A stretch of 24,000 bases of DNA from Serratia bockelmannii. Lineage in GTDB: Bacteria > Pseudomonadota > Gammaproteobacteria > Enterobacterales > Enterobacteriaceae. Location: positions 46,160 through 70,159 of the forward strand of contig NZ_VOUX01000024.1 in the NCBI RefSeq assembly GCF_008011855.1, read 5' to 3'. The position numbers and the translations under genes were made by a program. The notes under the pieces were generated by a model. That model was not told the DNA's origin, made no database searches, and was given only the letters and a program-made list of their open reading frames with translations. Below are positions 4,205 to 23,955 of the stretch, piece by piece (position 1 is the stretch's first letter; the number at the start of each line of letters is the position of its first letter).

Positions 4205-4206
4205 GG

Positions 4207-4623
4207 TCACCTCACGAACGAGTGCAGGGCATGGATCACTACCCCGAAAATTTCCAGCGTTTCGGGATAAATAGGACTGTAGGCGGGATTCATCGGCGCC
4301 AGGCAAACCTTGGGCGTAAGCAGCAGCCGCTTGACGGTAAACTCACCGTCGACCGCGGCGATCACGATGCTGCCATGCACGGGTTTTTCAGCCCGATCTA
4401 CGATCAGCAAATCTCCTGACAGTATGCCGCCATCGCTCATTGACTCACCCGTTGCGCGGATGAAATACGTGGCGGCCGGGTGTCTAATAAAATCATTTAA
4501 ATCAATGGATTGCTCTATGTAATCGTCGGCAGGGCTGGGGAAACCTGCCGGGCATGGTGTCCCGTATAGCGGGAGTTTGACCGGTTGACCTGGTGAAAAA
4601 AAGTACAATTCTCTGGCATTCAT
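4207..4623 (-). CDS. umuD: UmuD (self-cleaving S24 peptidase, Pol V accessory subunit)
   Basis: 138 aa. It has an Ala-Gly cleavage site in [11 protein letters not shown], the Ser nucleophile in GESMSDGG and the Lys in EFTVKRL. Its stop lies 2 nt before the umuC ATG. Confidence 0.92.
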
Positions 4624-4639
4624 AATAGTAATAATTTAT

Positions 4640-4655
4640 CTGTATATATATACAG
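4640..4655. promoter_or_regulatory. LexA (SOS) box upstream of umuDC
   Basis: CTGTATATATATACAG is a perfect palindrome and an exact match to the enterobacterial consensus CTGT-N8-ACAG. It lies 17 nt upstream of the umuD ATG. Confidence 0.88.
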
Positions 4656-4820
4656 TAAATCATAAACGAAACGTGCGCACACGCAAGCCTGAAACCGGGT
4701 CTCGTAGCGCGATCCGACGTAATATAATAATTTTCTGAGTGATTTTTTTCTGCAGCTTTTGGCGTTCCTCATGTGTGCTTGCACACATGATATCCACCAA
4801 AACTGTGGATAACGCGCAGT

Positions 4821-5507
4821 TCAGACCGTTGGTGTATCAATGGCCAGGATGAGTGAGGGATTGTCATTGCGAACGGCGCCCACAGCCGGCGAGACCGGTT
4901 GCCAGCTGAAATCCTCCGCTTGCAGGCTGTACACGTCAGCATGCATATGGCCAGAGGGCGGAACTAAGCTGGTATCGAGCCAGTCGCGCGCGGCAGCGGG
5001 TGGCAGCACCAGAGGACGTCGATCATGAATATCCGCCAGGCCGGCATGACTGGCGGCCGTGATAATGATAAAGCTGCCGCTGCCGTCGCTGGCTGCTACG
5101 TACAGCGCCGCAAAGAACAACGGCTGGCAAACGGCGCCACGGATAAAATAGGGCTGCTTCAGCCGTGGATTCTCCGTCGACTTTTTCCATTCGTACCAGC
5201 CCGATGCCGGCACCAGCGCGCGGCCATGCTTCCAGAGCGGGGCGAACATCCGGCTGTGCTCCGCGGTTTCAACGCGGGCATTGATGAGCGGTGGTTTTCC
5301 CTGTTCACGCCACCATTCCGGTGCATAGCCCCAGTTGACCAGCGTCAGCTGCAGCTGGTCATCGTGGTGATGAAACACCGACACTGGCGTGCCGGGGGCG
5401 ACGTTATACCGTGCATGCCAGTCGCCGGCGGTGCTAACCGGCGTATCAAGCGCCAGGGCGGTGAGAAATTCGTCTCGGCAATGGAATTGTGCAAAACGGC
5501 CGCACAT
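4821..5507 (-). CDS. SOS-response-associated peptidase (SRAP/YedK/HMCES family, abasic-site DNA-protein crosslink sensor)
   Basis: It starts MCGRFAQ, with the invariant Cys2. YNVAPG, INARVETA and WYEWKK are also typical SRAP motifs. SD AGGAGG lies 4 nt upstream of the ATG. Confidence 0.85.
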   Translation of the reverse strand: MCGRFAQFHCRDEFLTALALDTPVSTAGDWHARYNVAPGTPVSVFHHHDDQLQLTLVNWGYAPEWWREQGKPPLINARVETAEHSRMFAPLWKHGRALVPASGWYEWKKSTENPRLKQPYFIRGAVCQPLFFAALYVAASDGSGSFIIITAASHAGLADIHDRRPLVLPPAAARDWLDTSLVPPSGHMHADVYSLQAEDFSWQPVSPAVGAVRNDNPSLILAIDTPTV

Positions 5508-5816: not shown

Positions 5817-6812
5817 ATGAGTGATGATCCGGGAAGAAGTAAATTTGTCGATCTGCCGGCAGATGCCAGACCTTCTTTCTGGCGCAGCATAGCTGGCAGG
5901 GTATACGAAGGGATTATGCATTCTCTGGGACGGCCTGCCCGCCTGGAGAATGCGATTGCTTCCGGGCAGCTTATTCCCTGTCCGCTCATCGCCCCTGTCG
6001 ACACGTTCTGGACACGGTCTGTGGTTTACTGGCAGGACTGGATGTCTTCACCTTTGCCATCATTCCATTCTAGCCCTTGGACGATCGACTACCGCAAACT
6101 GGGCTACCAGCGCGAACTCGAAAGTCATTCACTTGCTGTTCCCGAGCTTCAGCAGCTGATTAGCAAAGAAGATGTCCCTCATTTTACATGCGACATCACG
6201 GATATCCGGGGAATGTCGGCATCGAAATCTATGGAGCATGATATCCGGGACATTGATGAATTTCCCATCCTAAGATGCCGTGAACTGGCTGAACCCGTGA
6301 CTAAAGAGTACTTGTGGAAAAATATGAGTCACAGGGAATTACGGCTCGACCGGATGCGATTTGCTGAATATCTGTGGGCAGAGCGGAGGCTCTACTGGCT
6401 GAACGAAGGTGGCTCACACCATTTTGGCGCTGCACGCTATCAGGCATGCCGCCTGGGCATTGCGGTTCCACTTACCGGCAGACTCTGTCGCTACAGTGTT
6501 AACGCGAGGATGGCCTCCGCTTTACGTCAGCAATGGCACCTGTTTGCTATTCCGGCAGACGAACTCTTCTGCAGCTTTTTAGATGCCATGAATGCTTTTG
6601 AATGCCCATTTGGTAATTCAGATTTGCCGCGTCACATGCATGATGCGGACAAATCAGGTATAGCTCTCAAACTCGTCTGGCTTGATCGTAGCCACCCCAG
6701 AGCCAATGCTGTTGCTGATGTACTTTCCGCCGCGGGTTTCCCTGATTTCGGTAAACAGTTGAAGCTGCTGGCGACCCAGACGGCTGAAACAATATCCCGA
6801 GAAGTAAATTAA
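5817..6812 (+). CDS. Hypothetical 331-aa protein, family not recognised
   Basis: This is a long ORF with ordinary amino-acid composition, and the competing ORFs on the opposite strand are short. I recognise no catalytic motif. The most conserved-looking patch is WLNEGGSHHFGAARYQACRLG. Confidence 0.6.
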   Translation: MSDDPGRSKFVDLPADARPSFWRSIAGRVYEGIMHSLGRPARLENAIASGQLIPCPLIAPVDTFWTRSVVYWQDWMSSPLPSFHSSPWTIDYRKLGYQRELESHSLAVPELQQLISKEDVPHFTCDITDIRGMSASKSMEHDIRDIDEFPILRCRELAEPVTKEYLWKNMSHRELRLDRMRFAEYLWAERRLYWLNEGGSHHFGAARYQACRLGIAVPLTGRLCRYSVNARMASALRQQWHLFAIPADELFCSFLDAMNAFECPFGNSDLPRHMHDADKSGIALKLVWLDRSHPRANAVADVLSAAGFPDFGKQLKLLATQTAETISREVN

Positions 6813-6909
6813 ACCTGTTCCTGGTCTTACCTCCCTGTTCATCCTTTGAACATTGATAACTTTTCTACCATTGGCTATGTTACGAACATATTTAGCCAAG
6901 GAAACGGGT

Positions 6910-7365
6910 ATGGATACTGTTGAAGAGTTAGGTGGCACCTATTTTTACGCTGGAATGGAGCGCCTTGGCGCTGGTGAGCTGTTCTTCTGGGTTTTTGTGG
7001 ATAAAACCATGCAGCAGCTGGGCGTCGGTGATGTGGGGGCTGTAGCGGCCATCGTCTCAGGCATGGCTATTTTACCGACCAGGCAGAAACCTGCCGGAGC
7101 CAAAAAGGGAACATCACTCGCCAGTGTGGCTTCACGAAAGGTCTTTGGGAACGCTAAATTCCCGTATGGAATTCAGCTACCAACATTTATCGGTAATCCC
7201 GTGGAAGGCATTAGGCGAAAGATGATCTCGAACATCGGCACCTTCGTTGGCCGGACAGTACCGGTCGTCGGCTGGCTCATTCTCGCCTATGATGTCTCAC
7301 GGATCGGCGTCGAAAGCGTTGTAGCCTATAACAAAATCGCCCGTGCTGAGGATCGCTTATGGTAA
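6910..7365 (+). CDS. Small membrane protein resembling the STM2901 family
   Basis: The track ORF starts at TTG 6853. The ATG at 6910 has SD AAGGA and gives MDTVEELGGTYFYAG..., which I recall as the N-terminus typical of STM2901-family proteins. Two hydrophobic segments are present (VGDVGAVAAIVSGMAILP and VPVVGWLILAYDV). Confidence 0.55.
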   Translation: MDTVEELGGTYFYAGMERLGAGELFFWVFVDKTMQQLGVGDVGAVAAIVSGMAILPTRQKPAGAKKGTSLASVASRKVFGNAKFPYGIQLPTFIGNPVEGIRRKMISNIGTFVGRTVPVVGWLILAYDVSRIGVESVVAYNKIARAEDRLW

Positions 7366-7694
7366 TCGAGACGCTTGAAGAGCAGGTAATCGCCCTCGTC
7401 AGAAAGCATTATGGTACGGTCATCACTGGCTGTTCACCCGAGATAACACCAGGTTCTGATATTGATGCTGACATTGGCATGGATTGGGCTGACGCAGAAG
7501 GGCTGATGGAGGATTTTTTTGAAAAGTTCTCAGTCGATAAGGCCAGCTTCAATATCAAAACCTATTACCCCGATCCGCCGATGGGGACATTACTCAAAAA
7601 TTTGTTTAGGCGTGAAAAGGAGCTCCCCGAAGTACCCCAATTTACCGTCAATATGCTTATCGAGTCCGCCAAGGCTGGGCGTTGGTTGTACTGA
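7359..7694 (+). CDS. DUF1493-like (acyl-carrier-protein-like) small protein
   Basis: 111 aa ending ...FTVNMLIESAKAGRWLY, the C-terminal signature I associate with DUF1493. Its ATG overlaps the upstream stop (ATGGTAA, 7-nt overlap), and SD GAGGA is present. Confidence 0.6.
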   Translation: MVIETLEEQVIALVRKHYGTVITGCSPEITPGSDIDADIGMDWADAEGLMEDFFEKFSVDKASFNIKTYYPDPPMGTLLKNLFRREKELPEVPQFTVNMLIESAKAGRWLY

Positions 7695-8006: not shown

Positions 8007-8813
8007 TTATATTATTTTTATTTTTGGAAGAACTTCCTCCATGACTTTGACGGCTTTTCCATCCTTGATTACATGGCTATTCCAACTACTTGATTGTGCC
8101 ATCGCATCATCGTATATTCCTTGTGATATAGCTAGTAAGTCCGTATTTACCCATGAGAATAGACCTTCATCAACAAACTTTTTTGATATTAACTCATAGT
8201 GGCTGTTCTTTTTTAATGCAACATATAATGGGTATTTTTTTTCAATATTTTCAGCCAAACTGTCAAATGAAATTATTGAGAAGTCGCTTCGTTGCTGGCC
8301 TCTTATTAATGCTGTTTTCTGTGTGTTATTCTCATATTCTGATCTACGTCCATGCACTAAAACATACTTGAAGTTAAAAGGATTTTTACCCATGTGAGCA
8401 GGTTCAATGAAGCCTTGTAATATATTATTTTTGAAGTGACTTCTATTGGATTCTTCATCAAACCAAGCCCTCCATGTATTCATTTGCTGCAAGGCAAGAT
8501 TAAAGTCAGCATGGAAAGTTGTGGAGTTATTCTTGAAATATTTTGAAGATGGCTTTTCTATCTCAACTAAAATTACATTCCAGTTGTCAGAGCTTTTAGA
8601 AAGATACACAAAGTCTGGTTTATAATCACTCGATAACGGTAATTTTCTGAATACCGTACAGAAATGAATTCCATGATTCTGTTCAAACTCTCTAGGAATA
8701 AACATTGTATTTTCTTCAAGATAGGTTTGATAAACTTGTTCTTTTTCATTTTTATTTAGCAAGTCAATATACTCTTGCTTTTTTTTGTTTATTTCTTGAC
8801 CTGTAATGTACAT
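8007..8813 (-). CDS. DUF4263 / Shedu (SduA)-like PD-(D/E)xK nuclease, short form
   Basis: 268 aa. YKPDFVYLSKSSDNWNVILVEIEKPSSKYF provides the D...ExK nuclease core. This is followed by LALQQMNTW and YVLVHGRR...IISFDSL, the order I recall for the DUF4263 domain of Shedu. The gene is low in GC. Confidence 0.55.
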   Translation of the reverse strand: MYITGQEINKKKQEYIDLLNKNEKEQVYQTYLEENTMFIPREFEQNHGIHFCTVFRKLPLSSDYKPDFVYLSKSSDNWNVILVEIEKPSSKYFKNNSTTFHADFNLALQQMNTWRAWFDEESNRSHFKNNILQGFIEPAHMGKNPFNFKYVLVHGRRSEYENNTQKTALIRGQQRSDFSIISFDSLAENIEKKYPLYVALKKNSHYELISKKFVDEGLFSWVNTDLLAISQGIYDDAMAQSSSWNSHVIKDGKAVKVMEEVLPKIKII

Positions 8814-9025: not shown

Positions 9026-9967
9026 TTAACCTCGTTGAAGCTGTTTGTTTTTTATAAGTATTTCGCGATGAATCTGTGCTTTTTTGCGCTCGATTTGTAA
9101 CGATAGCTGATGAATAGTATTTGGTAGTTCTTTTGTTAGGAATGCATGATTATTTTCTTCAAATTCTCCTGATTCGGATAATTCAGAGTGTATGAGTTCA
9201 AGCATCTTGATGATATCAATTTGATGTTCTACTATAAATCTACGATAAGCTGTTTTCCCTACTTCTCTAACGAACAGATCTAGAAACTTACGGCCGTTAC
9301 GAAATTCTTCAATGAAAAACTTTTCAATGATAAATGCAACCACAGGAACCATCAATGCCTTTATACGGGCAACTTCTTGCACTACATTTCTTTTAACCCC
9401 TTGAGTGACGTTGTGAAACCTTGATGCCATACAAGTAATGGGATTCAAAACCCTGACTTTATCATGAGCTGTATATTGAAATTTCTCCATGGGTAAATGA
9501 AAAACTTCTGTATTGATAATAAGTTTTCTGCCGTTAAAATCAGAGGGAGTAAGATATGAAGCGCTCGACAGGACATCCACAATGTTGGGTTCTTCAATGT
9601 GACGGTCATCGAAAATTTCTTTATTGACAAACTTTTTATGAAAATATGTTTTAATTTTCCCGTCTTTTATGTTTTTTAACGGCAGGATTGCCAGTGAAGG
9701 TGGTGAGCCATCATTATAATTTACGGGTACATCTAATACTGATGATATTACTGAAATGTCGATATTCCGTGCTGTCACATCAATATCATTGGAAGTAATA
9801 TAATCAATAGGGGGATGTTCGGAGTAAATATCCTTGTACCATACCACCCAGTAGTGCACAGCCTGACCGCCTACGGTCACGATTGGCGACGTGAATTTAT
9901 CACCATGCTTCATTAGTTCAGCGTTAAGGATATAGAGTTGGTCCAACGGACTCATATGTTCTGACAT
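9026..9967 (-). CDS. Hypothetical 313-aa protein, possibly with a minimal nucleotidyltransferase fold (weak)
   Basis: Strong SD (AAGGTGG, 7-nt spacer). VTVGGQAVHYW...ITSNDIDVTA resembles the G[GS]...DxD motif of AbiEii/MNT-type nucleotidyltransferases, though the spacing is longer than canonical. The C-terminal half is helical and charged. Confidence 0.6.
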   Translation of the reverse strand: MSEHMSPLDQLYILNAELMKHGDKFTSPIVTVGGQAVHYWVVWYKDIYSEHPPIDYITSNDIDVTARNIDISVISSVLDVPVNYNDGSPPSLAILPLKNIKDGKIKTYFHKKFVNKEIFDDRHIEEPNIVDVLSSASYLTPSDFNGRKLIINTEVFHLPMEKFQYTAHDKVRVLNPITCMASRFHNVTQGVKRNVVQEVARIKALMVPVVAFIIEKFFIEEFRNGRKFLDLFVREVGKTAYRRFIVEHQIDIIKMLELIHSELSESGEFEENNHAFLTKELPNTIHQLSLQIERKKAQIHREILIKNKQLQRG

Positions 9968-10260: not shown

Positions 10261-10407
10261 ACTTTCCTAAAGGAGAGCCTATCTGCAAAGCGGTGGCTTC
10301 ATGCTATTGCTTTGCATAGAGTGTTTCTGCCAAGGGCTCGATACCAAGCTGATAAGACTATCGGGTGGTAGGGTTCAGAAGTTACATGAACTTATCAAAT
10401 TTTTTAA

Positions 10408-10505
10408 CCTCCCTGTCGCCGCGCCGCTGAGGTGCAGGGACAGGAACGGCGGCAGGCCGTCGTTGGCGCCCTGCCCCGCGATGAACCACAATGAATTCCA
10501 CGGTG
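10408..10505 (-). pseudogene. ~100-bp relic of a third copy of the GC-rich 356-aa gene
   Basis: 10410-10461 aligns with 13034-13085 of the intact copy with only a few mismatches (CGCGCCGCTGA.GTGCAGGGACAGGAACGGCGGCAG.CCGTCGT.GGCGCCC). It still encodes GANDGLPPFLSLHLSG, versus GADDGLPPFLSLHISG in the intact copy. A ~12-nt deletion and a frame change follow. Both ends are truncated, and the right end abuts the KAP stop codon. Confidence 0.65.
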
Positions 10506-10506
10506 A

Positions 10507-12756
10507 TTAACGGCTTCTACTGATCGACTGTTCGACCTGTTTAACCTGTTCCGCGAACTTGCCGGCCTGCTTGATGTGTTCAATACGCGCTAGCACTTTC
10601 TGAGTCTCGCCCAGATATTCAGTCATATTAGTCAGTGGCAGCGCTTGATAATACCCATGCGCGCTACTGAAGCCATGATACCGGAGCTGCAGCAGCAGGC
10701 TCAGAAAAGCCTCATCCTTCTTGACTTGGCGATCGACCCATTTCCGTACTGCCTGGATCCCGCTAATATCACGCCATGCCCAGATATATCTATTCAGCAG
10801 GGGAAAGGCCGCCAACTGTTTGGTGATGGCCGGGCTGTTCAGTCTCTTCCCCATGGTTTTCTGTAAGATGACGACGTTACTCCGCTCCATCCACTCTTCC
10901 AGCTGATGGCCCGTTCTGTCTCCGACTATCCCATGTTGCCACAGCAGGTGACGGACATACTCAGCGCCCCAGTACCAGGCTTTCCCAAGCTGGAGTTGCG
11001 CAGTCAGGAACTTATTGGTAGATGTGACATCCTCACGTAGCATTCGTTGGATTAGCCGATCGGCCACGCTGTAGGTATCCAGGTCCTGCAGCTCAAACCA
11101 CTCGTTGTCTTGCCGATAGCGTTTCACCATGTCATCCCCGTTGTCGAAGAAGAACTGCAGCAGACCCTGGCACTCGGCCAGCGTTCTGGAATCAATCTGG
11201 GGGGATGTTAGCTCGGCCAGCATGTGCTCAAACCAGGTGCGGGAAGATAAGTTCTTTTTTCTCTGGATATGACCGAGCAGGCGTTGTGCCAGTTCCTGCT
11301 GCTTTTCAGGCTGGTCATGCTGGCCGGCGAGCGCGAAGATTTGGTCAAAATCTTCCGGTAACAGGATATTTTGTGGCGCGCAGAAGGCGAAGTAGTAACG
11401 CCAGTATGCCTGGCTGCCAAGCCGCTTCCCTGCTGTGAGCCAAGCACTTTCCTGCGGACCGGTGCTTACAAAGAGTTTATCGGGATGCACTGTCAGTCCA
11501 TCTAAGATCCCCGGGACCCATTCACTCAGCTCCGTGATGGAATGCGCTTTGGCCGGGAAATACCGCATCAGGTGTTGCTTAAGGTTGTCTGTCAGGACTT
11601 TCTGCTCCTCTTTACTGACATGGCCATCTCCGGTCTGCACCACGTTCCGTTCCGACAGGTATTCTTCCACCCAGTCATACAGACCCGAATTTGTCGTGCG
11701 GAGCAGCTGCAGGAAGCACAGATCGGGGAAATACACATAGTCCCGTATGCCCGCATAACGGAACCGTAGTGCATTTAGAACGGTCTGGACTTCCCGGGGC
11801 GATTTCAGCATGGCGCCATAAATATTCGCGACTGCCGTCAGGTCATCCAGTATGCCCTTCTCCGGGGGAGATTTATTCACCGTTTGGTATAACTCAATGG
11901 CATCATCACGAAATTGCTGGCGCAGCGCAAAGGATTCCGGGCGCGGCAGTCCGAATGAGATCTGGACAATTTTCTGCAGGTACAGGCTCCCGTCGGTGAC
12001 GCCCAGCCCCTGGCTGATGGCCTGTGACAGCACCGCCTTGTCATAACAGAGCAGGTAGCGGAAGCGGGGAAAATCCGCGACCGACTTCACCAGTCGGATC
12101 ACCTCCACGGCCTGGGCCGGTTCGAGGCGATCGAGATCGTCGAGCAGGATAATGAAGCTCAGATCCAGCTCTTCGATTTTCTGAGCAATCTCGGCGCGCA
12201 TGTCGGCCGTGGTTTTTTCCTTTTCTTTCAGCCAGTGCGAGTCTGCCACGGCGTTCAGTGCGCCGCTGGCATCGGGGACACCGGGAATGACCGCGGCGAT
12301 CTGAGCGACAGGCGACAGATTCCGGGCGGTGGCCCGGGTGTAGTCCATCAGCGTCTTGGCGGTACCGGTCAGCGCTTTTTTCTTTTTGAGGGCTGCCCGT
12401 TCCTTCGCTGAAAGCCGACGTTCTTCTTCCTCGGCAATGATGCCAGCTACCGGAAGCAGTAAGGACGCCACCAGAGGCGTATCACTGCCATCGAGCCAGG
12501 GGGAAATATTCAGCACGAAGGTTCGCGCTTCCTGTTGTTTATCCAGCGCCGTGCGCAGCAGATTAAGGAGGCTGGTTTTCCCCGTCCCCCAGGCGCCTTC
12601 GATACCGATCACGGCACTGCCCTCCCGGCCGATCTCCTTAATGGCGCGGGCCAACTCGGTGGCAATGTGGGTGAAACCATAGCGGTCTTCGTCGTTATTG
12701 CGGATGGCGCGATCGGGATGTTGCCCCTGGCGGTTTTCTTGCGGTGAATGCGTCAT
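10507..12756 (-). CDS. KAP-family P-loop NTPase (749 aa)
   Basis: It has the N-terminal DRYGF motif, Walker A IGIEGAWGTGKTSLLNLL, Walker B FIILLDDLDRLEP about 150 aa later, and the long helical C-terminal region typical of KAP NTPases. The segments in the inter-Walker insert (PLVASLLLPVAGIIA and VAQIAAVIPGV) are too short or too polar to call transmembrane helices with confidence. Confidence 0.85.
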   Translation of the reverse strand: MTHSPQENRQGQHPDRAIRNNDEDRYGFTHIATELARAIKEIGREGSAVIGIEGAWGTGKTSLLNLLRTALDKQQEARTFVLNISPWLDGSDTPLVASLLLPVAGIIAEEEERRLSAKERAALKKKKALTGTAKTLMDYTRATARNLSPVAQIAAVIPGVPDASGALNAVADSHWLKEKEKTTADMRAEIAQKIEELDLSFIILLDDLDRLEPAQAVEVIRLVKSVADFPRFRYLLCYDKAVLSQAISQGLGVTDGSLYLQKIVQISFGLPRPESFALRQQFRDDAIELYQTVNKSPPEKGILDDLTAVANIYGAMLKSPREVQTVLNALRFRYAGIRDYVYFPDLCFLQLLRTTNSGLYDWVEEYLSERNVVQTGDGHVSKEEQKVLTDNLKQHLMRYFPAKAHSITELSEWVPGILDGLTVHPDKLFVSTGPQESAWLTAGKRLGSQAYWRYYFAFCAPQNILLPEDFDQIFALAGQHDQPEKQQELAQRLLGHIQRKKNLSSRTWFEHMLAELTSPQIDSRTLAECQGLLQFFFDNGDDMVKRYRQDNEWFELQDLDTYSVADRLIQRMLREDVTSTNKFLTAQLQLGKAWYWGAEYVRHLLWQHGIVGDRTGHQLEEWMERSNVVILQKTMGKRLNSPAITKQLAAFPLLNRYIWAWRDISGIQAVRKWVDRQVKKDEAFLSLLLQLRYHGFSSAHGYYQALPLTNMTEYLGETQKVLARIEHIKQAGKFAEQVKQVEQSISRSR

Positions 12757-12758
12757 GG

Positions 12759-13829
12759 TTACAGATCCCCGTACAGTGCGGCGAGCTCGGCCAGCGCCGC
12801 GGCTGTGGACGGGTGCTCCAGCTGCGCCAGCAGCTCGGCCTCGAGCGCGGTGAAGGTGTCCGGCGCCAGCCGCAGCCGCAAATTCGGCAGCACCAGACCG
12901 ATGTCGCCGCTCTCCGGCACATGCAGCGAGACATGCCGCCCCTGATAGCTGCGGGTGCGATCGCCGTCCTGACGCGCGCGCAGCAGGCGGCGCAGTTCGG
13001 CGAACACCGGCCAGCCGAAGGTCGACTGGAAGACCGCGCCGCTGATGTGCAGGGACAGGAACGGCGGCAGTCCGTCGTCGGCGCCCGGATAGGCGCCCTG
13101 ACCGGCGACGATCTCCACCGTGGCGCTGAGCTCGCCGGCGGCGGCGATCAGCTGCTGGCGCTCCACGAAGGGCACGGTCAGCGCCAGGTACTCGGCCAGC
13201 GCCGGATCGTCGGCGCGCTGCGCGGCGACCGCCAGCGGGAAGATCGCCCGCAGCCGCACCGGGGTGCAGGCGCGGGCCAGCGCCTCGTCGCTGAAGTCAT
13301 CGAGGTTCAGCACGCCGCTGGCCAGCGGTCGGGCGAAGAACTCGGCGCTGCCGGCCGGCGGGGTGCATGTGGCCGTAAAGCGGTCACGCAGCGCCTGCAG
13401 CCAGTCCTCGCCGCGCAGGCCGAAGGTGCGCCGGTAATAGTGGGGATCGACATCGAGCCCGCCGCCCACCGCCGTCTCCAGCAGCGCATCGGTGATCAGC
13501 AGCAGCGCGGACAGCGGCGCCCGGTTGACCGGCCCGCGGCCATCGCGATAGGCGATCTGCGCCTGGCTGAACAGCCAGCGCAGTTCGGCGCGGCTCAGCG
13601 CCTGGCCGTCGACGGTTTCCGCGCGCACGACCTTGCGGTACAGCTGGCCCAGGGTGGTGTACGGCGCCGCGCAGAGCGCGCGATATTCGTCGCCGGCGAC
13701 CGAAGTGGCCAGCGTTTGCTGCAGCAGACGTTCTGCCAGGGTGTTGACCGGCACGGCTTCGGCGGCGGCGCGGTTTTTCAGGGCGGCGATCAGGGATTTC
13801 GGAAAGCGGAGGTTCAGCTGGCTGAGCAT
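12759..13829 (-). CDS. 356-aa protein with a ribbon-helix-helix-like N-terminus; the rest is unassigned (intact copy of a gene repeated three times)
   Basis: SD AGGA with a 6-nt spacer. The N-terminus MLSQLNLRFPKSLIAALKNRAAAEAVPVNTLAERLLQQ fits the beta-strand/helix/helix pattern of Arc/CopG-type RHH domains. The stop lies 2 nt before the KAP ATG. The gene is extremely GC-rich, so long mirror ORFs appear on the plus strand; their R/G/Q/A-rich products look non-biological. Confidence 0.7.
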   Translation of the reverse strand: MLSQLNLRFPKSLIAALKNRAAAEAVPVNTLAERLLQQTLATSVAGDEYRALCAAPYTTLGQLYRKVVRAETVDGQALSRAELRWLFSQAQIAYRDGRGPVNRAPLSALLLITDALLETAVGGGLDVDPHYYRRTFGLRGEDWLQALRDRFTATCTPPAGSAEFFARPLASGVLNLDDFSDEALARACTPVRLRAIFPLAVAAQRADDPALAEYLALTVPFVERQQLIAAAGELSATVEIVAGQGAYPGADDGLPPFLSLHISGAVFQSTFGWPVFAELRRLLRARQDGDRTRSYQGRHVSLHVPESGDIGLVLPNLRLRLAPDTFTALEAELLAQLEHPSTAAALAELAALYGDL

Positions 13830-14018
13830 GGCGGTGTCCTGCTGTCATAGGAATTTATTGTGATGATAGCAACATCCTATAAAGCAGAAATGGAAATTAC
13901 AATGCTTTACCCAATGCAGCTAGCTTCCTTTTACTATGGTTGCAACAATGAACCATTGCTAACCATTTGGCTAGTCTGCTAGTGAAGCTGAGTGCGGCGG
14001 TCGGCGTTTTTGCGTCGC

Positions 14019-14045
14019 AGATCCGAAAACCCCCAGTTCCGGATC
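14019..14045. repeat. Copy 1 of the shared intergenic element (core AGATCCGAAAACCCC + N5 + CCGGAT)
   Basis: The 15-nt core at 14019-14033 is identical to those at 21553-21567 and 23916-23930. GATCCG and CGGATC (14040-14045) can pair. It lies 190 nt upstream of the minus-strand RHH-356aa/KAP operon. Confidence 0.7.
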
Positions 14046-14163
14046 TTCCTGGGACTGATTCGGTTGTACTCGATCACAACGCCTGTTGTACCCGCCTTAG
14101 TACAAACGAAACTGTCCTCCATGGGGTTGTCCCCAGCAGACACGGTCTATACAGTCGATTTAA

Positions 14164-14179
14164 CTGTGCATTTGTACAG
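14164..14179. promoter_or_regulatory. LexA (SOS) box of the colicin promoter
   Basis: CTGTGCATTTGTACAG fits CTGT-N8-ACAG exactly at the invariant positions. It lies 22 nt upstream of the colicin ATG. SOS control is the rule for colicin operons. Confidence 0.7.
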
Positions 14180-14201
14180 TATTTATCAACGGAGATAGCC
14201 C

Positions 14202-15944
14202 ATGCTTTTTAATGCAAATACCAAATTTACTTATCATTCACCGGATGATGGCGACAGCATGACGGTGACCGGCGACCGTCCCAGCCAACCTGGCCCTACT
14301 GGCCCCACAGGTAACGGGGGCGACAGCGGCGGTGGCAATACCGGCACGACCAATAAGTTGATCATGAAGCCCGGTGATGTGCATACCTCCCGCTATGGCA
14401 AGGTCATTATCAATGCCCAGGGTCAGCCAACGATGAACGGGGTCGTCATGAACTATGATAATTCATCGGTTGTGGATGATGGTGCGGGCGGTGCAACCCG
14501 CGTACTGAATTCCATCATCGATGCTGCCAAACCGCCGGCCAGCCAGAATTTTGGCAATAACGCCAGCATTTCGGATGGGCGCTATGCCGGCAAAAACCCG
14601 GCGGCGGACTATACCCTTCCGCTGGCTATCTTTACGGCGGTCCGTCGCGGCCAAATTCCACCTGGCTTTTGGCTTGACAACAACAAGGTCATGACCGAGA
14701 TCACGCAAAAATACGAGATCAACGGCGGCGGCAAAGGGAATGATCGCACCGGGTACAGAAAATCCAATGTGGCAGTGCCTGGCCTGACTAATGCTTATCA
14801 GCAGTGGCAAAAAGAACAGCAAGACGCCGCCAAGCGTAATGCCGAAGAAGAAGCCCGACGTAAGGCGGCCGAAGAGGCAAAACGTAAGGCGGAAGAAGAA
14901 GCCAAACGTAAAGCGGCAGAAGCGGAAGCCAAACGGCGCGCCGAGGAGGAAGCGAAACGCAAACAGGCTGAATGGGAAGCGACGCATAACATCGATGCGG
15001 CGAAAAAGAATGTTCAGCAGGCAGAAAGCCGGTTAAACACTGCGAAGCAAAAACGCGACGATCTTCAACGCAGGACCTACCGTACTCAGACCAGCCTCAG
15101 TTCCGCAATCATAATGCGAGACCGTACGAAAGAGGTGATCGATAAACATCTCCCAGGCCCTTCAATCATCCCTTCGGATCAAGAAAACAGACAACAACTC
15201 CTGGATGCGCTGAAACAGAGTGAGGAGGAGGTGAACAAACTGCGGGCCCAGGTCGATGCGGCAAACCGCGATCTCAACCTCGCCAATCAGGAGTTTGACA
15301 ATGCCTCGAAAAACCTGAATGCCGCCCGTGATAACCTGCAGCGGCTGGAGAAAGCGGAAGCGGATCGTAAGGCCGAAGAGGCCAGGAAGAAGGAAGAGGA
15401 GGCGATGAAAGACGCCATCAAGACGACGGCGGATTTTTACAAGGAACTGACGGAGAAATTTGGCGAGCAGTCCGCCAAGGTGGCCAAAGAGCTGGCCGAT
15501 GCGGCCAAGGGGAAAACGCTCAAAAATGCGGAGGAGGCGCTGAAGGCGTTTGAGAAGTACAAGGACGTGCTGAACAAGAAATTCAGCGTCGCCGATCGCG
15601 AAGCGGTGGCTAAAGCGCTGGAGTCGGTGCGCCGAGAGCATATCGCCCAGAATCTTGTCAAGTTTAGCAAGGCGTTCAACTACACGAGCAGAGCCATTGA
15701 TTTCTACGATGTCGTCATCGTCGAGCTGCCCAAAGCGATACGAACGCAGAACTTCAGACCTGTTTTCGTTAAAGTGGAGACACTTGCGGCAGGCGCGGCC
15801 GCCACGACGCTGACGGCGTTTGCCTTCAGCGTGATGTTGGGCACGCCACTGGGTCTTTTCGGTTTTGCCATTATCATGACTTTGGTCAGCGTGCTGGTTA
15901 ATGAAAAGCTCATGGAGAAGGTCAACAAAGCCGTCGGTATTTAA
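14202..15944 (+). CDS. Pore-forming bacteriocin (colicin/klebicin) with a colicin Ia/Ib-type channel domain
   Basis: The C-terminal ~180 aa (nt ~15405-15941) are colinear with the colicin Ia pore domain. Examples are KDAIKTTADFYKELTEKFGEQSAKVAKELA..GKTLKNAEEALKAFEKYKDVLNKKF versus Ia KDAINFTTEFLKSVSEKYGAKAEQLAREMA..GKKIRNVEEALKTYEKYRADINKKI. The hydrophobic hairpin AAGAAATTLTAFAFSVMLGTPLGLFGFAIIMTLVSVLV and the ending EKVNKAVGI (Ia: EKANKFWGI) also match. The N-terminus carries DDGDSMTVTG (aa 15-24), resembling the colicin B TonB box region YGDTMVVWP. A Gly-rich stretch follows. SD GGAG is present. Confidence 0.9.
   Translation: MLFNANTKFTYHSPDDGDSMTVTGDRPSQPGPTGPTGNGGDSGGGNTGTTNKLIMKPGDVHTSRYGKVIINAQGQPTMNGVVMNYDNSSVVDDGAGGATRVLNSIIDAAKPPASQNFGNNASISDGRYAGKNPAADYTLPLAIFTAVRRGQIPPGFWLDNNKVMTEITQKYEINGGGKGNDRTGYRKSNVAVPGLTNAYQQWQKEQQDAAKRNAEEEARRKAAEEAKRKAEEEAKRKAAEAEAKRRAEEEAKRKQAEWEATHNIDAAKKNVQQAESRLNTAKQKRDDLQRRTYRTQTSLSSAIIMRDRTKEVIDKHLPGPSIIPSDQENRQQLLDALKQSEEEVNKLRAQVDAANRDLNLANQEFDNASKNLNAARDNLQRLEKAEADRKAEEARKKEEEAMKDAIKTTADFYKELTEKFGEQSAKVAKELADAAKGKTLKNAEEALKAFEKYKDVLNKKFSVADREAVAKALESVRREHIAQNLVKFSKAFNYTSRAIDFYDVVIVELPKAIRTQNFRPVFVKVETLAAGAAATTLTAFAFSVMLGTPLGLFGFAIIMTLVSVLVNEKLMEKVNKAVGI
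14823..14969 (+). repeat. Imperfect 24-bp (8-codon) tandem repeats inside the colicin gene
   Basis: They encode DAAKRNAEEEARRKAAEEAKRKAEEEAKRKAAEAEAKRRAEEEAKRKQA, a highly charged Ala/Glu/Lys/Arg helix reminiscent of TolA domain II-type repeats. The repeats also create long shadow ORFs on the opposite strand. Confidence 0.8.
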
Positions 15945-15951
15945 CGTCAGC

Positions 15952-15971
15952 AAGGCCGCTTACGCGGCCTT
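15952..15971. terminator. Bidirectional rho-independent terminator between the colicin and immunity genes
   Basis: AAGGCCGC-TTAC-GCGGCCTT forms an 8-bp GC-rich stem. It is followed by TTTATTT on the plus strand. The hairpin overlaps the last codons of the converging immunity gene. Confidence 0.7.
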
Positions 15972-16298
15972 TTTATTTCTGAGGAACAGGGCAAGCAGAT
16001 ACAGGATGCCCAGCGGCAGGGCCATGATAAAACAGAACACATAATACAGAACCAGTAGCCCATTTTTGCCAATGGTATCGGCGAACAACCCGCGGTGCCA
16101 GAATGCTTCATTGGTGAAGCGCAGGGCGGCCGTTTCAATGCCCTTTTTGGCACAGGGATAGAGCAAAAAGCTCAGAAAGGCAATGACCAGCGCGAGAGGG
16201 ATGTTCACCCTGTCCTGGAAGGAATGGATGTAATAGAGCGCGCTAAAAAAGCAGGCTACTCCCCAAACCTGACTTTTCCAATAATACGCTTTGGTCAT
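15960..16298 (-). CDS. Colicin Ia/Ib-type immunity protein (inner-membrane)
   Basis: From the ATG at 16298 (SD GGGAGG) the product is 112 aa. LYPCAKKGIETAALRFTNEAFWHRGLFADTIGKNGLLVLYYVFCFIMALPLGILYLL aligns with colicin Ia immunity LYPVAKWYIEDTALKFTRPDFWNSGFFADTPGKMGLLAVYTFTVFILSLPLSMIYIL (from memory). Its orientation opposite to the colicin gene is usual for pore-former immunity genes. Confidence 0.85.
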   Translation of the reverse strand: MTKAYYWKSQVWGVACFFSALYYIHSFQDRVNIPLALVIAFLSFLLYPCAKKGIETAALRFTNEAFWHRGLFADTIGKNGLLVLYYVFCFIMALPLGILYLLALFLRNKKAA

Positions 16299-16365
16299 TC
16301 GCGCCTCCCTGGACATCGGCCTTTTTCATCTTTCGAACTTGCCATCATATCGGCTTTGCGGGTGA

Positions 16366-16737
16366 TCAGCGAAACGGAACCCCGTTGCCATAGACCGAGT
16401 TGGTTGGTTTGGTGTTGAAGTTAAAGGTAAATTCGCGATCCTTCACCGGTTGATCGCGTTCAAAGCGCCAGCTTTTCATGGCGGTCAACACCGCCTCGTC
16501 AAAGACACCGGCAGGCCTCGCCTGCACAATACGCACATGCCTGACCGTGCCGTCGTGTTCGATATCGTATTTCACCTTGACGACGCCACTGGTGCTTTTC
16601 GACAGGGCCTGTTCAGGATAAACAGGGGCGGTTTTGATGATGGCGTGGGGTGCCGGTGTGGCACCGAGCGCCAGCGCCGGCGTTAGGCACAGTAACAGCA
16701 GAGCAGAAAATGTAGATTTTCTCATGTCGTGATCCAT
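16366..16737 (-). CDS. Secreted protein consisting of a signal peptide plus a TonB C-terminal domain only
   Basis: MRKSTFSALLLLCLTPALALGA is a Sec-type signal peptide; the real start may be the ATG at 16725. The rest, APVYPEQALSKSTSGVVKVKYDIEHDGTVRHVRIVQARPAGVFDEAVLTAMKSWRFE, aligns with E. coli TonB [57 protein letters not shown]. There is no N-terminal membrane anchor and no Pro-rich spacer. Confidence 0.8.
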   Translation of the reverse strand: MDHDMRKSTFSALLLLCLTPALALGATPAPHAIIKTAPVYPEQALSKSTSGVVKVKYDIEHDGTVRHVRIVQARPAGVFDEAVLTAMKSWRFERDQPVKDREFTFNFNTKPTNSVYGNGVPFR

Positions 16738-17625: not shown

Positions 17626-18570
17626 ATGGATTTAATTATGGAATGGAGATTTTTAGGTTCTATATCAGAGGCTAGGAAATCTGGCTGTAGTGGAGTTTAT
17701 CTTATTGTCCATAAAGGACTTTTCAATCGTGTGGTTTACGTTGGGGTAAGTTGTAATGTAGGTAGAAGGATAAACGAACATTACGACGGTTACCTGAGAG
17801 GAAACCGAACAATTTACGCCGCGGGTCACGATGATGATGTGTATCGCTTCATGTCAGCTTATAAAATTCATAACCACACTAAGCACTATCAAGCCTTGGC
17901 GAAGGATTATAAGATATGGGCATCTACAACATTATATTCTGATTTGCCGAAAAACATGCTAGCAAAAAACCAAACCTTTGATACTGACTGGCAGAGCATT
18001 GCATTAGAAAAATATATTCCTCAACTGGTAGTATGGGCCCTTCCAATGGCTGGTTACTGTTATTCAAATGCAAGCAGAATTGAAAGTGTAATTCAATCAA
18101 AGCTCATTAAATCTTTTTATTTGAGAGGGTTTTTTAATATAAAGCAACTAAGCATATTGGGTAAAATTGAATTCCCGCATATGGAAAAGGTCAAGGTTTT
18201 TATTATTGATGCACCTGATTTAGATCCGGCATCCCAACTTATTTTTAGTAACCTGTATAACAAGGAAACGGATGGAAATTTCTGTAAAGAGTTCCGTTCA
18301 CAGTTTAAAAACGAGATTTTTCAGAGGGAAAGCGAAATTCAGAGAAAGCGAACTATCAGGGAGCATAAGGTATCTCTTTATGAAAATTTTGGCAAACCCT
18401 GGACTTTAAAGGAAATGGAAAAACTTAGAGTCATGCTTGTCGATTTTGATTTGTCCCCGACAGAAATATCTGAATACCTAGGAAGAGAACCTCGCTCTAT
18501 CTCTAAAAAAATAAGCGAAAATGATAAAGTTACTAATTATAAATGGAGAGAGAGCGTCGGCTGGTTGTGA
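17626..18570 (+). CDS. GIY-YIG nuclease-domain protein with a C-terminal Myb/SANT-like helix-turn-helix
   Basis: The N-terminus GVYLIVHKGLFNRVVYVGVSCNVGRRINEH fits the GIY-x(9-11)-YIG...R...H/E motif. The C-terminus KPWTLKEMEKLRVMLVDFDLSPTEISEYLGREPRSISKK fits the W..E...L.....G....I pattern of Myb/SANT-like HTH domains. The gene is low in GC. The start could also be the ATG at 17638. Confidence 0.6.
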   Translation: MDLIMEWRFLGSISEARKSGCSGVYLIVHKGLFNRVVYVGVSCNVGRRINEHYDGYLRGNRTIYAAGHDDDVYRFMSAYKIHNHTKHYQALAKDYKIWASTTLYSDLPKNMLAKNQTFDTDWQSIALEKYIPQLVVWALPMAGYCYSNASRIESVIQSKLIKSFYLRGFFNIKQLSILGKIEFPHMEKVKVFIIDAPDLDPASQLIFSNLYNKETDGNFCKEFRSQFKNEIFQRESEIQRKRTIREHKVSLYENFGKPWTLKEMEKLRVMLVDFDLSPTEISEYLGREPRSISKKISENDKVTNYKWRESVGWL

Positions 18571-21504: not shown

Positions 21505-21592
21505 ATTATAAATTATTGCATTATTAGCATTGGCTCCTTTCTTTTCTCACACAGATCCGAAAACCCCTAAAGCCGGATGCTAACTATCTGAG
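21505..21592. repeat. Copy 2 of the shared intergenic element (extended ~85-bp form)
   Basis: TATTGCATTATTAGCA...TCCTTTCTTTTCTCACACAGATCCGAAAACCCCTAAAGCCGGATGCTAACTATCTGAG aligns with copy 3 over about 80 bp. The core is at 21553-21567, 295 nt upstream of the PHP-ATPase ATG. Confidence 0.7.
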
Positions 21593-22626: not shown

Positions 22627-22629
22627 GGT

Positions 22630-23865: not shown

Positions 23866-23955
23866 CCAATAATTAGTATTGCATTATAAGCACAAATCCT
23901 TCTGCATTCCTCCTGAGATCCGAAAACCCCAATAATCGGAAATGCCGTACCTGAG
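23866..23955. repeat. Copy 3 of the shared intergenic element (extended form)
   Basis: TATTGCATTATAAGCA...TCCTTCTGCATTCCTCCTGAGATCCGAAAACCCCAATAATCGGAAATGCCGTACCTGAG. The core is at 23916-23930, 291 nt upstream of the CD-NTase ATG. Confidence 0.7.

What the first reader, a model, noticed from the sequence alone, without database searches (positions are those of the whole stretch)
10507..13829. RHH-fronted 356-aa protein translationally coupled to a soluble KAP P-loop NTPase: candidate undescribed two-gene module
Seen in the sequence: the two minus-strand genes are separated by 2 nt (TAA 12761-12759, ATG 12756-12754), and each has an SD. The upstream product has an Arc/CopG-like RHH start followed by ~310 aa that I cannot place in any family. 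The downstream product is a clear KAP NTPase (GAWGTGKTS and LLDDLDRLEP), but its inter-Walker insert lacks convincing transmembrane helices. Established knowledge (from memory): a transmembrane KAP NTPase (Tmn) was reported as a single-gene antiphage system by Gao et al. 2020. A soluble KAP paired with an RHH-domain partner is not a system I know. Further observation: the two coupled genes differ sharply in base composition. The first is extremely GC-rich and the second is average, so the operon looks assembled from parts. Inference: the pair sits in a dense defence neighbourhood (Shedu-like, PplA-like, CBASS) and may be a regulator/sensor plus NTPase effector pair for defence or abortive infection.
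Basis: partly seen in the sequence, partly recalled or inferred. Interest (0 to 1): 0.7.

Follow-up and report, generated by a model that had tools for sequence, protein, structure and literature searches.

The report
Known pifC–pifA phage-exclusion operon
The two coupled genes are a divergent Serratia-plasmid copy of the classical F-plasmid pif operon (repressor PifC plus the phage-T7 exclusion NTPase PifA), so the module is real but was described decades ago and standard defence finders already call it.

Summary
Two minus-strand genes (356 aa, 12759-13829; 749 aa, 10507-12756) lie 2 nt apart, each with a Shine-Dalgarno (SD) sequence. The second is a KAP P-loop NTPase without transmembrane helices, and GC content drops from 71% to 56% between them. 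The "undescribed module" reading fails. The window is 100% identical to Serratia marcescens plasmid p14BL03_1, whose record already names the NTPase pifA. PADLOC's PifA model matches it end to end (E 3e-291), and it is 41% identical to F-plasmid PifA. The 356-aa protein aligns end to end with F-plasmid PifC (35% identity, E 2e-47). In F, pifC sits 1 nt upstream of pifA in the same arrangement. The most likely mechanism, inferred by homology, is that an Arc-like ribbon-helix-helix (RHH) autorepressor, also known as a fertility inhibitor, keeps a membrane-acting abortive-infection NTPase at low level. The GC step and tight coupling are family-wide. Side observations may be less well described. 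PifC and PifA identities are discordant across plasmids. pifC is sometimes coupled to other cargo, such as a 289-aa HEPN-like protein. rfsF-like recombination sites bracket these defence modules.

The parts
12759..13829 (-). pifC: 356-aa PifC homologue, an Arc-like RHH N-terminus followed by ~310 aa of PifC-specific helical and beta domains
   Evidence: ORF. End-to-end BLASTP against F-plasmid PifC WP_000952217: 35% identity, E 2e-47. tblastn hits in 1305 plasmid records, many annotated 'transcriptional repressor PifC'. N-terminal MLSQLNLRF and C-terminal LYGDL conserved in 86 homologues. AlphaFold model pLDDT 85, pTM 0.80.
13704..13829 (-). Region encoding PifC residues 1-42, the putative ribbon-helix-helix DNA-binding domain
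   Evidence: Sub-threshold Pfam hits to HicB (0.04), CopG_antitoxin (0.09) and DUF6364 (0.2). 76 of 86 homologues hit DUF6364 at E<=0.01. Aligns to P22 Arc residues 7-43 at E 6e-5. Predicted helices 11-24 and 28-41 follow an unstructured N-terminal strand.
10507..12756 (-). pifA: 749-aa KAP-family P-loop NTPase, orthologue of the F-plasmid phage-T7 exclusion protein PifA
   Evidence: PADLOC PifA PDLC02361: E 3.3e-291, profile positions 3-718 of 720. Pfam KAP_NTPase 3.7e-42. 41% identity over 707 aa to F PifA. Annotated pifA in AP028474.1.
12571..12597 (-). Walker A motif GAWGTGKTS (PifA residues 54-62)
12118..12147 (-). Walker B region LLDDLDRLEP (PifA residues 204-213)
12754..12770 (-). Translational-coupling junction: GGGGA (SD for pifA, inside the pifC codons for G-D), TAA stop, 2-nt spacer, ATG of pifA
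   Evidence: Sequence. The same junction with a 0-2 nt gap occurs in F, Enterobacter, Citrobacter and the other loci with an intact coupled downstream gene.
13837..13840 (-). SD-like AGGA, 7 nt upstream of the pifC ATG
13935..13949 (.). Near-palindrome ATGGTTGCAACAAT, a candidate PifC operator (pifO-like). Assignment is inferred only.
   Evidence: the repeat finder I7 and D1. Other pifC lineages carry different palindromes in the equivalent promoter-proximal region.
13862..13876 (.). Second imperfect palindrome GATGATAGCAACATC, which shares a 13-nt repeat with 13935-13947. Candidate operator, inferred only.
   Evidence: the repeat finder D1. It lies where the F-type plasmids carry ATGCTAGGTTAGCAT.
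14019..14046 (.). rfsF-like site AGATCCG-N14-CGGATCT, a presumed ResD tyrosine-recombinase site that marks the upstream boundary of the pif module
   Evidence: Conserved 160-216 nt upstream of pifC in 21 of 29 loci. In R64 it sits at nt 43,620-43,647, which is where PMC8004404 places the rfsF site. Chance expectation is 0.05 per window. A resD gene lies 3.4 kb beyond the window.

Best explanation
This is a divergent orthologue of the F-plasmid pif ('phage inhibition by F') operon, carried on a Serratia marcescens IncI-like plasmid. Homology, synteny and translational coupling are shown here. Function is inferred from the F prototypes and was not tested here. PifC would bind operator palindromes in the 372-bp upstream region through its Arc-like RHH N-terminus. 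It would thereby autorepress a weak promoter and keep both proteins scarce. The pifA ribosome-binding site lies inside the last pifC codons and the gap is 2 nt, so PifA should be made in fixed proportion to PifC by coupled translation. PifA is a membrane-associated KAP P-loop NTPase without transmembrane helices. It would stay inactive until a phage protein triggers it; in T7 the triggers are gp1.2 and the capsid protein gp10. It would then permeabilise or depolarise the membrane, nucleotides would leak out, and the infection would abort. PifC probably has a second role as a fertility inhibitor that blocks the coupling proteins of rival IncP and IncW conjugative plasmids. The triggers and phage range of this 41%-identical Serratia PifA are unknown.
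For: The window is 100% identical to AP028474.1, where the genes are annotated pifA and transcriptional regulator. The PADLOC PifA model matches at 3.3e-291 over its full length, and Pfam KAP_NTPase at 3.7e-42. PifA is 41% identical to F PifA over 707 aa. PifC is 35% identical to F PifC end to end, E 2e-47. F has the same order, pifC then pifA, with a 1-nt gap. The same architecture occurs in Enterobacter, Citrobacter, Pantoea, Rahnella, Erwinia, Buttiauxella and other genera. In 23 species-level genome loci, 14 have an intact pifA directly downstream of pifC and 3 more have pifA remnants. The literature supports the functions. PifA is the T7 abortive-infection system and depends on gp1.2 and gp10 (PMC8594841). 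PifA is a KAP founder that lacks transmembrane helices and causes depolarisation and nucleotide leakage (PMC13001434). pifC is the pif operon's regulatory gene and a fertility inhibitor that targets coupling proteins (PMC5696584, which cites Miller et al. 1985).
Against: No experiment exists on this Serratia variant. Identity to the characterised F proteins is only 35-41%, so trigger specificity, fertility inhibition and even repression are extrapolations. No curated HMM in Pfam, NCBIfam or PADLOC recognises PifC. The consensus scan found no sigma-70-like promoter upstream of pifC, and the operator assignment is a guess. The operator-like palindromes differ between PifC lineages even though the RHH strand MLSQLNLRF is invariant, which a simple strand-reads-operator model does not explain.
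Confidence: 0.9

Rival explanations
1. The pair works as a true two-component defence system. PifC would be more than a repressor: a sensor, antitoxin-like partner or adaptor that PifA needs in order to act. The pair would then be mechanistically new despite the old names.
For: Coupling with a 0-2 nt gap is conserved wherever an intact downstream gene is present, whatever that gene is. The large, conserved ~310-aa non-RHH part of PifC has no significant structural match in the PDB (Foldseek) and no sequence relative there. The BASEL authors could not obtain a functional ectopic pifA construct and had to use whole F (PMC8594841).
Against: DefenseFinder and PADLOC treat PifA as a single-gene system, and the literature read here attributes exclusion to pifA (PMC8594841, PMC13001434). 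PifC and PifA identities are strongly discordant, which argues against tight co-evolving protein-protein contacts. PifC is also coupled to unrelated cargo genes. The known extra activity of the non-RHH part is fertility inhibition (PMC5696584).
Confidence: 0.07
2. The locus is mainly a plasmid-competition and plasmid-maintenance module. PifC would act chiefly as a fertility inhibitor and replication-region regulator, and phage exclusion by PifA would be incidental.
For: PifC inhibits IncP and IncW transfer through their coupling proteins (PMC5696584). RexAB and PifA have very narrow phage ranges, which led the BASEL authors to suggest other primary roles (PMC8594841). PMC13552941 also notes that phage restriction may not be PifA's primary function. 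The locus abuts rfsF/resD and the replication region in F, R64 and this plasmid.
Against: The locus is embedded among Shedu, Ppl-like and CBASS systems. The alternative cargo genes downstream of pifC hit defence-candidate models (PDC-S64). KAP NTPases recur in defence contexts (PMC13552941).
Confidence: 0.15
3. The operon is an inactive relic: intact ORFs without expression or function in Serratia.
For: No consensus promoter was found upstream. Several related loci carry pifA remnants or frameshifted pifC.
Against: Both ORFs are intact and full length relative to their families, with the Walker motifs preserved. Intact homologous pairs at about 88-94% nucleotide identity occur in several Serratia plasmids, and 97%-identical PifC proteins occur elsewhere.
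Confidence: 0.05

Closest known systems
pif operon (pifC-pifA) of E. coli plasmid F (NC_002483: pifC 44672-45760, pifA 42445-44670) and its near-identical copy in IncI1 plasmid R64
   Same: Same gene order, strand and tight coupling (1 nt in F, 2 nt here). PifC aligns end to end, from MLSQLNLRF to LYGDL. PifA aligns over 707 aa and shares the KAP Walker motifs and the lack of transmembrane helices. An rfsF site sits ~160-216 nt upstream of pifC. The GC content of pifC exceeds that of pifA by about 15 points in both.
   Different: Identity is only 35% for PifC and 41% for PifA. The host is Serratia (Yersiniaceae), and both genes are about 8 GC points richer. The promoter-proximal palindromes differ: ATGGTTGCAACAAT here against ATGCTAGGTTAGCAT in F. 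The flanks differ too: a colicin upstream here against ccdAB/resD in F, and no convergent TIR gene pair downstream. Phage specificity is untested.
Citrobacter, Enterobacter and Kluyvera pifC-pifA loci (for example NZ_CP077263, L004)
   Same: These carry the closest PifA relatives outside Serratia (66-68% identity) and have an identical TAACCATG junction with a 2-nt gap.
   Different: Their PifC is only 37-38% identical to the window's PifC, so the two genes have different histories. They also use a different operator class, ATGACATCATGTCAT.
Tmn (Gao et al. 2020), a transmembrane P-loop NTPase defence gene
   Same: It is a membrane-acting P-loop NTPase and a single-gene abortive or dormancy-type defence system.
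   Different: Tmn belongs to the YobI family and has two transmembrane helices inserted in the P-loop domain. It forms a decamer and causes plasmolysis without depolarisation (PMC13001434). PifA has no transmembrane helix, and no Tmn model appeared among the PADLOC hits.
QatA (Qat system) and the PADLOC candidate PDC-S20 KAP-type ATPases
   Same: They share the KAP/P-loop N-terminal domain (PADLOC 5.7e-12 for QatA and 5.3e-22 for PDC-S20).
   Different: Only the NTPase domain matches. The NCBIfam QatA score is 32.9 bits against a cut-off of 600, and no QatBCD partner genes are present.
Arc and Mnt repressors of phage P22 (ribbon-helix-helix)
   Same: PifC residues 2-37 align in register with the Arc strand QFNLRW and its two helices. 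There is a weak Mnt hit with the family profile (E 0.9).
   Different: PifC carries about 310 additional residues. All sequence matches are below curated thresholds.

Membership tests
PifA (F-plasmid phage T7 exclusion protein; PADLOC/DefenseFinder 'PifA' single-gene system) | Full-length match to the PifA profile | tested here: met
   PDLC02361: E 3.3e-291, 966 bits, protein residues 10-748 on profile positions 3-718 of 720
PifA (F-plasmid phage T7 exclusion protein; PADLOC/DefenseFinder 'PifA' single-gene system) | End-to-end homology to the experimentally studied F PifA | tested here: met
   41% identity and 60% positives over 707 aa, E 0.0
PifA (F-plasmid phage T7 exclusion protein; PADLOC/DefenseFinder 'PifA' single-gene system) | KAP P-loop NTPase domain with Walker A and Walker B motifs, and no transmembrane helices (unlike most KAP members) | tested here: met
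   Pfam PF07693 at 3.7e-42. Motifs at residues 54 and 204, and maximum Kyte-Doolittle 19-residue score 1.48. The literature states that PifA lacks transmembrane helices (PMC13001434).
PifA (F-plasmid phage T7 exclusion protein; PADLOC/DefenseFinder 'PifA' single-gene system) | Abortive exclusion of T7-like phage, triggered by gp1.2 or gp10, with membrane leakage | not testable with these tools
   Needs phage challenge and permeability assays
PifC (pif operon repressor / fertility inhibitor) | End-to-end homology to F PifC, including the invariant N-terminus MLSQLNLRF and the C-terminus LYGDL | tested here: met
   35% identity, E 2e-47, residues 1-356 against 1-362. Invariant columns are listed.
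PifC (pif operon repressor / fertility inhibitor) | Located immediately upstream of pifA, on the same strand and translationally coupled | tested here: met
   2-nt gap here and 1 nt in F. Intact or remnant pifA lies downstream in 17 of 23 species-level loci.
PifC (pif operon repressor / fertility inhibitor) | Recognised by a curated family model | tested here: inconclusive
   No Pfam, NCBIfam or PADLOC model matches either this protein or F PifC itself. No such model appears to exist in these libraries, so this does not count against membership.
PifC (pif operon repressor / fertility inhibitor) | Autorepression at pifO, and inhibition of IncP/IncW transfer through the coupling protein | not testable with these tools
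   Known for F PifC (PMC5696584). Needs reporter, EMSA and conjugation assays.
Ribbon-helix-helix (Arc/MetJ/CopG) DNA-binding superfamily, for the PifC N-terminus | Strand-helix-helix of about 45 residues, with sequence similarity to RHH families | tested here: inconclusive
   Every hit is below its curated cut-off: HicB 0.04, CopG 0.09, DUF6364 in 76 of 86 homologues with best E 4.4e-5, and Mnt 0.9. The Arc pairwise alignment gives E 6e-5 in register. The AF2 helices 11-24 and 28-41 fit, but the monomer model cannot show the intersubunit sheet.
Tmn (YobI-family transmembrane NTPase, Gao 2020) | Two transmembrane helices inserted within the P-loop domain | tested here: not met
   No hydrophobic 19-residue window reaches 1.6. 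No Tmn model appears among the PADLOC hits.
Qat system (QatA) | QatA equivalog score, and presence of the QatBCD partners | tested here: not met
   NCBIfam QatA scores 32.9 bits against a 600-bit cut-off. The neighbouring genes are Shedu, an unplaced 313-aa protein and a colicin.
rfsF (ResD site-specific recombination site), for the upstream 28-bp inverted repeat | Same sequence and position as the rfsF annotated in R64, with a resD gene on the plasmid | tested here: met
   The R64 copy is at nt 43,620-43,647, matching the rfsF boundary coordinate used in PMC8004404. resD is annotated at record 30559-31368 of AP028474.1, with a fourth site 1.4 kb upstream of it. Recombination activity is not testable here.

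The most novel reading that the evidence does not exclude
pifC may be a portable, GC-rich, Arc-like regulatory front end that has been recombined many times with different abortive-infection effectors. These effectors include several PifA lineages, a 289-aa HEPN-like Cys-rich protein and a 255-aa membrane protein, always with the same 0-2 nt coupling junction. The resulting modules, and neighbouring defence operons such as CBASS and the Ppl-like gene, are bracketed by direct-orientation rfsF-like sites. ResD/rfsF recombination may therefore act as a cassette-exchange system for defence genes on IncF- and IncI-type plasmids. The Serratia pair would be one product: a new PifC lineage with a new operator joined to a Citrobacter-type PifA of unknown phage specificity.
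Probability: 0.3. Interest if true: 0.5.

Novelty: already known. Interest (0 to 1): 0.12.

Why it matters
As a discovery claim it matters little. The pif operon has been studied since the 1980s, PifA gave the KAP family part of its name, and PADLOC and the GenBank annotation already call this locus. The value lies in the correction. A "soluble KAP plus RHH partner" is not a new system, and the large non-RHH part of PifC, although absent from HMM libraries, belongs to a known fertility-inhibition and repressor protein. There is residual interest in three points. First, PifA's mechanism and PifC's structure are still unsolved: neither has a sequence relative in the PDB, and the PifC model has no significant fold match. 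A 35-41% divergent pair therefore offers useful comparative material. Second, PifC and its cargo genes have clearly been reassorted. Third, rfsF-like sites flank defence modules, which suggests a recombinase-driven route for shuffling defence genes on enterobacterial plasmids.

Tried and rejected
HMM libraries gave nothing above threshold for the 356-aa protein (Pfam, NCBIfam, PADLOC). Only BLAST-level comparison identified it.

Literature searches for 'pifC'+'pifA', 'pifO' and 'pif operon' returned almost nothing usable. The original 1980s-90s papers (PMC219239, PMC107403, PMC416466) are not held. I therefore could not compare the published pifO sequence and promoter map with my candidate operators.

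I first considered the conserved AGATCCG-N14-CGGATCT repeat as pifO or an RNA hairpin. I rejected that in favour of rfsF, because its R64 coordinate matches the annotated rfsF boundary (PMC8004404) and because it also occurs upstream of unrelated operons.

The 368-aa antisense ORF over pifC (12744-13850, + strand) is a by-product of 71% GC. In F the antisense frame is broken into 123-185-aa pieces.

The promoter scan found no consensus promoter upstream of pifC. AP005147 is not in the plasmid collection, so I used the RefSeq copy NC_005014 instead.


Full report
**1. Observation**

The window holds two minus-strand ORFs exactly as described: 12759-13829 (356 aa) and 10507-12756 (749 aa). Read on the minus strand, the junction is GGGGATCTGTAACCATG. 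The stop TAA is at 12761-12759, two spacer bases follow, and the ATG is at 12756-12754. AGGA (13840-13837) lies 7 nt before the first ATG. GGGGA (12770-12766) lies 9 nt before the second ATG and sits inside the last codons of the first gene.

The 749-aa protein matches Pfam KAP_NTPase at 3.7e-42. Its Walker A motif GAWGTGKTS is at residue 54 and its Walker B motif LLDDLDRLEP at residue 204. No 19-residue window exceeds Kyte-Doolittle 1.48, so there is no convincing transmembrane helix.

GC content is 71.3% (GC3 89%) in the first gene and 55.7% (GC3 66%) in the second, against 49% for the whole window. The neighbourhood claim also holds:
- Shedu SduA at 8007-8813, E 1.8e-108
- a Ppl-like ATPase at 18637-21258
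- a type I CBASS at 21694-23625 (cyclase 7.8e-150, 4TM effector 8.1e-164)

**2. Identity**

The region 10300-14200 is 100% identical to Serratia marcescens 14BL03 plasmid p14BL03_1 (AP028474.1). In that record the two genes are already annotated 'pifA: phage T7 exclusion protein' and 'transcriptional regulator'.

PADLOC's PifA model matches the 749-aa protein at E 3.3e-291 over profile positions 3-718 of 720. The protein is 41% identical to F-plasmid PifA over 707 residues.

The 356-aa protein has no Pfam, NCBIfam or PADLOC hit above threshold. tblastn nevertheless finds homologues in 1305 plasmid records, many named 'transcriptional repressor PifC'. It aligns end to end with F-plasmid PifC at 35% identity and E 2e-47, from the shared MLSQLNLRF start to the shared LYGDL end.

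In F (NC_002483), pifC (44672-45760) lies 1 nt upstream of pifA (42445-44670) on the same strand. The same layout occurs in Enterobacter, Citrobacter and many other Enterobacterales. The module is therefore the classical pif operon.

**3.

I examined 23 loci from different species in the genome collection:
- 14 have an intact pifA directly downstream of pifC
- 3 have pifA remnants
- 3 have a 289-aa HEPN-like, Cys-rich protein
- 1 has a 255-aa protein with N-terminal hydrophobic segments
- 2 have something else

. Linkage to the KAP gene is thus the rule. This confirms membership of a known operon rather than revealing a new system.

**4. Mechanism**

Homology, synteny and coupling are shown here. 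The functions are inferred from F.

According to the literature read here, pifC is the regulatory gene of the pif operon. It is also a fertility inhibitor that blocks the coupling proteins of IncP and IncW plasmids (PMC5696584, which cites Miller, Lanka and Malamy 1985).

PifA is the abortive-infection determinant against T7. It depends on T7 gp1.2 and gp10, and it acts by membrane depolarisation and nucleotide leakage. It is a founding KAP member that lacks transmembrane helices (PMC8594841; PMC13001434, which cites Schmitt et al. 1991 and Cheng et al. 2004).

The N-terminus of PifC is plausibly an Arc-like ribbon-helix-helix. The supporting evidence is:
- sub-threshold HicB, CopG and DUF6364 hits
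- DUF6364 hits in 76 of 86 homologues
- a weak Mnt hit with the family profile
- helices 11-24 and 28-41 in an AlphaFold model with pLDDT 85 and pTM 0.80

The rest of PifC is a helical domain followed by a beta-beta-beta-beta-alpha / beta-beta-beta-alpha unit. It has no significant PDB match; the best hit, to Whirly proteins, has E 0.04 and a low TM-score. Neither protein has a sequence relative in the PDB.

I infer that PifC autorepresses through palindromes in the 372-bp upstream region. The candidates are 13935-13949 and 13862-13876. I also infer that PifA is produced by coupled translation and is triggered by a phage protein. The consensus scan found no sigma-70-like promoter upstream of pifC.

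**5. The composition step**

The step is not specific to this plasmid. F shows 63% against 48% and Enterobacter 62% against 48%. In every locus examined, pifC is richer in GC than the gene that follows it.

The underlying idea has some merit at family level, because the two proteins have discordant relationships:
- The window's PifA is 66-68% identical to the Citrobacter, Enterobacter and Kluyvera PifA proteins, whereas its PifC is only 37-38% identical to theirs.
- F PifC is 83% identical to Siccibacter PifC, whereas the corresponding PifA proteins are only 36% identical.

The invariant C-terminal YGDL codons (TAC GGR GAT CTG TAA) contain the SD of the downstream gene. This explains their conservation and provides a fixed junction at which different partner genes meet.

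The 368-aa antisense ORF across pifC is a by-product of its high GC content.

**6. Things beyond the finding**

A 28-bp inverted repeat, AGATCCG-N14-CGGATCT, lies 160-216 nt upstream of pifC in 21 of 29 loci. In R64 it occupies nt 43,620-43,647. This is the coordinate at which PMC8004404 places rfsF, the site where IncI1 plasmids swap accessory gene sets. PMC9412624 likewise invokes rfsF-ResD in the acquisition of mosaic segments.

The window has copies at 14019-14046, at 21553-21579 (one mismatch, between the CBASS and the Ppl-like gene) and at about 23916-23942 (degenerate, upstream of the CBASS). A fourth copy lies 1.4 kb upstream of the plasmid's resD gene. All four are in the same orientation.

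In F and in several other loci, a second site 3.8-5.4 kb away brackets pifC, its cargo gene and, where the gene content was checked, a convergent defence-like gene. This suggests ResD-mediated cassette exchange of defence modules. I have not tested that idea, and the literature partly anticipates it.

**7. Verdict**

The feature is real, and it is a regulator plus a defence NTPase. It is the already known pifC-pifA operon, it is called by PADLOC, and it is named in the source record. Novelty: already known. This copy is a divergent Serratia member whose phage specificity has not been tested. Interest is low. The most novel reading still open concerns the modular reassortment of pifC with alternative effectors and the rfsF-bracketed organisation of the island.

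Noticed in passing
window 14019-14046, 21553-21579, ~23916-23942; plasmid record AP028474.1 nt 29171-29198 (L032:1172-1199): There are four rfsF-like sites (AGATCCGAAAAC...CGGATCT), all in the same orientation. They lie upstream of pifC, between the CBASS and the Ppl-like gene, upstream of the CBASS, and 1.4 kb upstream of resD. The left arm is conserved in all four. The right arm is degenerate in the two middle copies. The pattern looks like serial ResD-mediated accretion of defence modules.
   Followed up: partly
L005:5091-5960, L006:5091-5960, L020, L027, L029 (289 aa); L016 (255 aa): In some plasmids and genomes pifC is translationally coupled to a gene other than pifA. One alternative is a 289-aa protein with a HEPN-like N-terminus (PADLOC PDC-S64 at 1.5e-16) and a Cys-rich C-terminus. 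Another is a 255-aa protein with hydrophobic N-terminal segments. The 0-2 nt junction is the same in each case.
   Followed up: partly
window 10507-13829 compared with L002, L004, L018, L022 and others: PifC and PifA identities are strongly discordant between plasmids. The window against Citrobacter gives PifA 68% and PifC 38%. F against Siccibacter gives PifC 83% and PifA 36%. The two genes have therefore been reassorted, probably at the conserved YGDL-stop-ATG junction.
   Followed up: partly
window 12759-13829 against 10507-12756; also L002, L003 and all pifC loci: pifC is richer in GC than its downstream gene in every locus examined, usually by about 8-18 points and also at third codon positions, even between orthologues only 35-40% identical. 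I have no explanation for why this step persists.
   Followed up: partly
upstream of pifC: window 13862-13949; L002 ~9790-9900; L004, L011, L022 and others: At least three different promoter-proximal palindrome classes accompany different PifC lineages: ATGCTAGGTTAGCAT with CATCAC boxes, ATGACATCATGTCAT, and ATGGTTGCAACAAT in Serratia. Yet the putative DNA-reading strand MLSQLNLRF is invariant. Which sequence is the real operator remains open.
   Followed up: partly
window 14202-15944 (+), 15960-16316 (-), 16366-16737 (-): A pore-forming colicin (ColA_N plus the Colicin domain, 2.6e-51) is transcribed divergently from pifC. It is followed by a colicin E1-type immunity protein and a small protein with a TonB C-terminal domain.
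   Followed up: partly
window 9026-9967 (-): A 313-aa protein between Shedu and pifA has no Pfam or PADLOC hit. It has its own promoter-like sites (10260-10232 and 10023-9996). It is AT-rich (~36% GC), and its sequence contains a GG...DxD-like stretch reminiscent of nucleotidyltransferases. It might be an uncalled defence gene.
   Followed up: no
window 17626-18570 (+) and 18637-21258 (-): A 314-aa protein with a weak GIY-YIG match (5e-4) is convergent with the 873-aa Ppl-like ABC/SMC-type ATPase. The Ppl profile matches it only in part (2 stretches, best at residues 725-863).
   Followed up: no
window 2942-5507 and 5817-7694: This stretch holds umuC/umuD, an SRAP (SOS-response associated peptidase, 1.4e-51), a DUF6685 protein, a small membrane protein and an acyl-carrier-like protein. 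They lie between the replication gene and the defence genes.
   Followed up: no
L002:5217-6396 (F plasmid, convergent with pifA): The F genes downstream of pifA encode a 96-aa protein and a CAP12/Pycsar-type TIR 'nucleotide-binding protein' (Pfam 3.7e-37; PADLOC PDC-S35 2.3e-65). They lie inside the same rfsF-bracketed segment as pifCA.
   Followed up: no
PifC model m69e85f12fad9, residues 225-353: The C-terminal beta-beta-beta-beta-alpha / beta-beta-beta-alpha unit of PifC gives its best, non-significant Foldseek hits to Whirly and PUR-alpha single-stranded nucleic-acid binders (E 0.04-2). This is a weak hint that might relate to its action on conjugative DNA transfer.
   Followed up: partly
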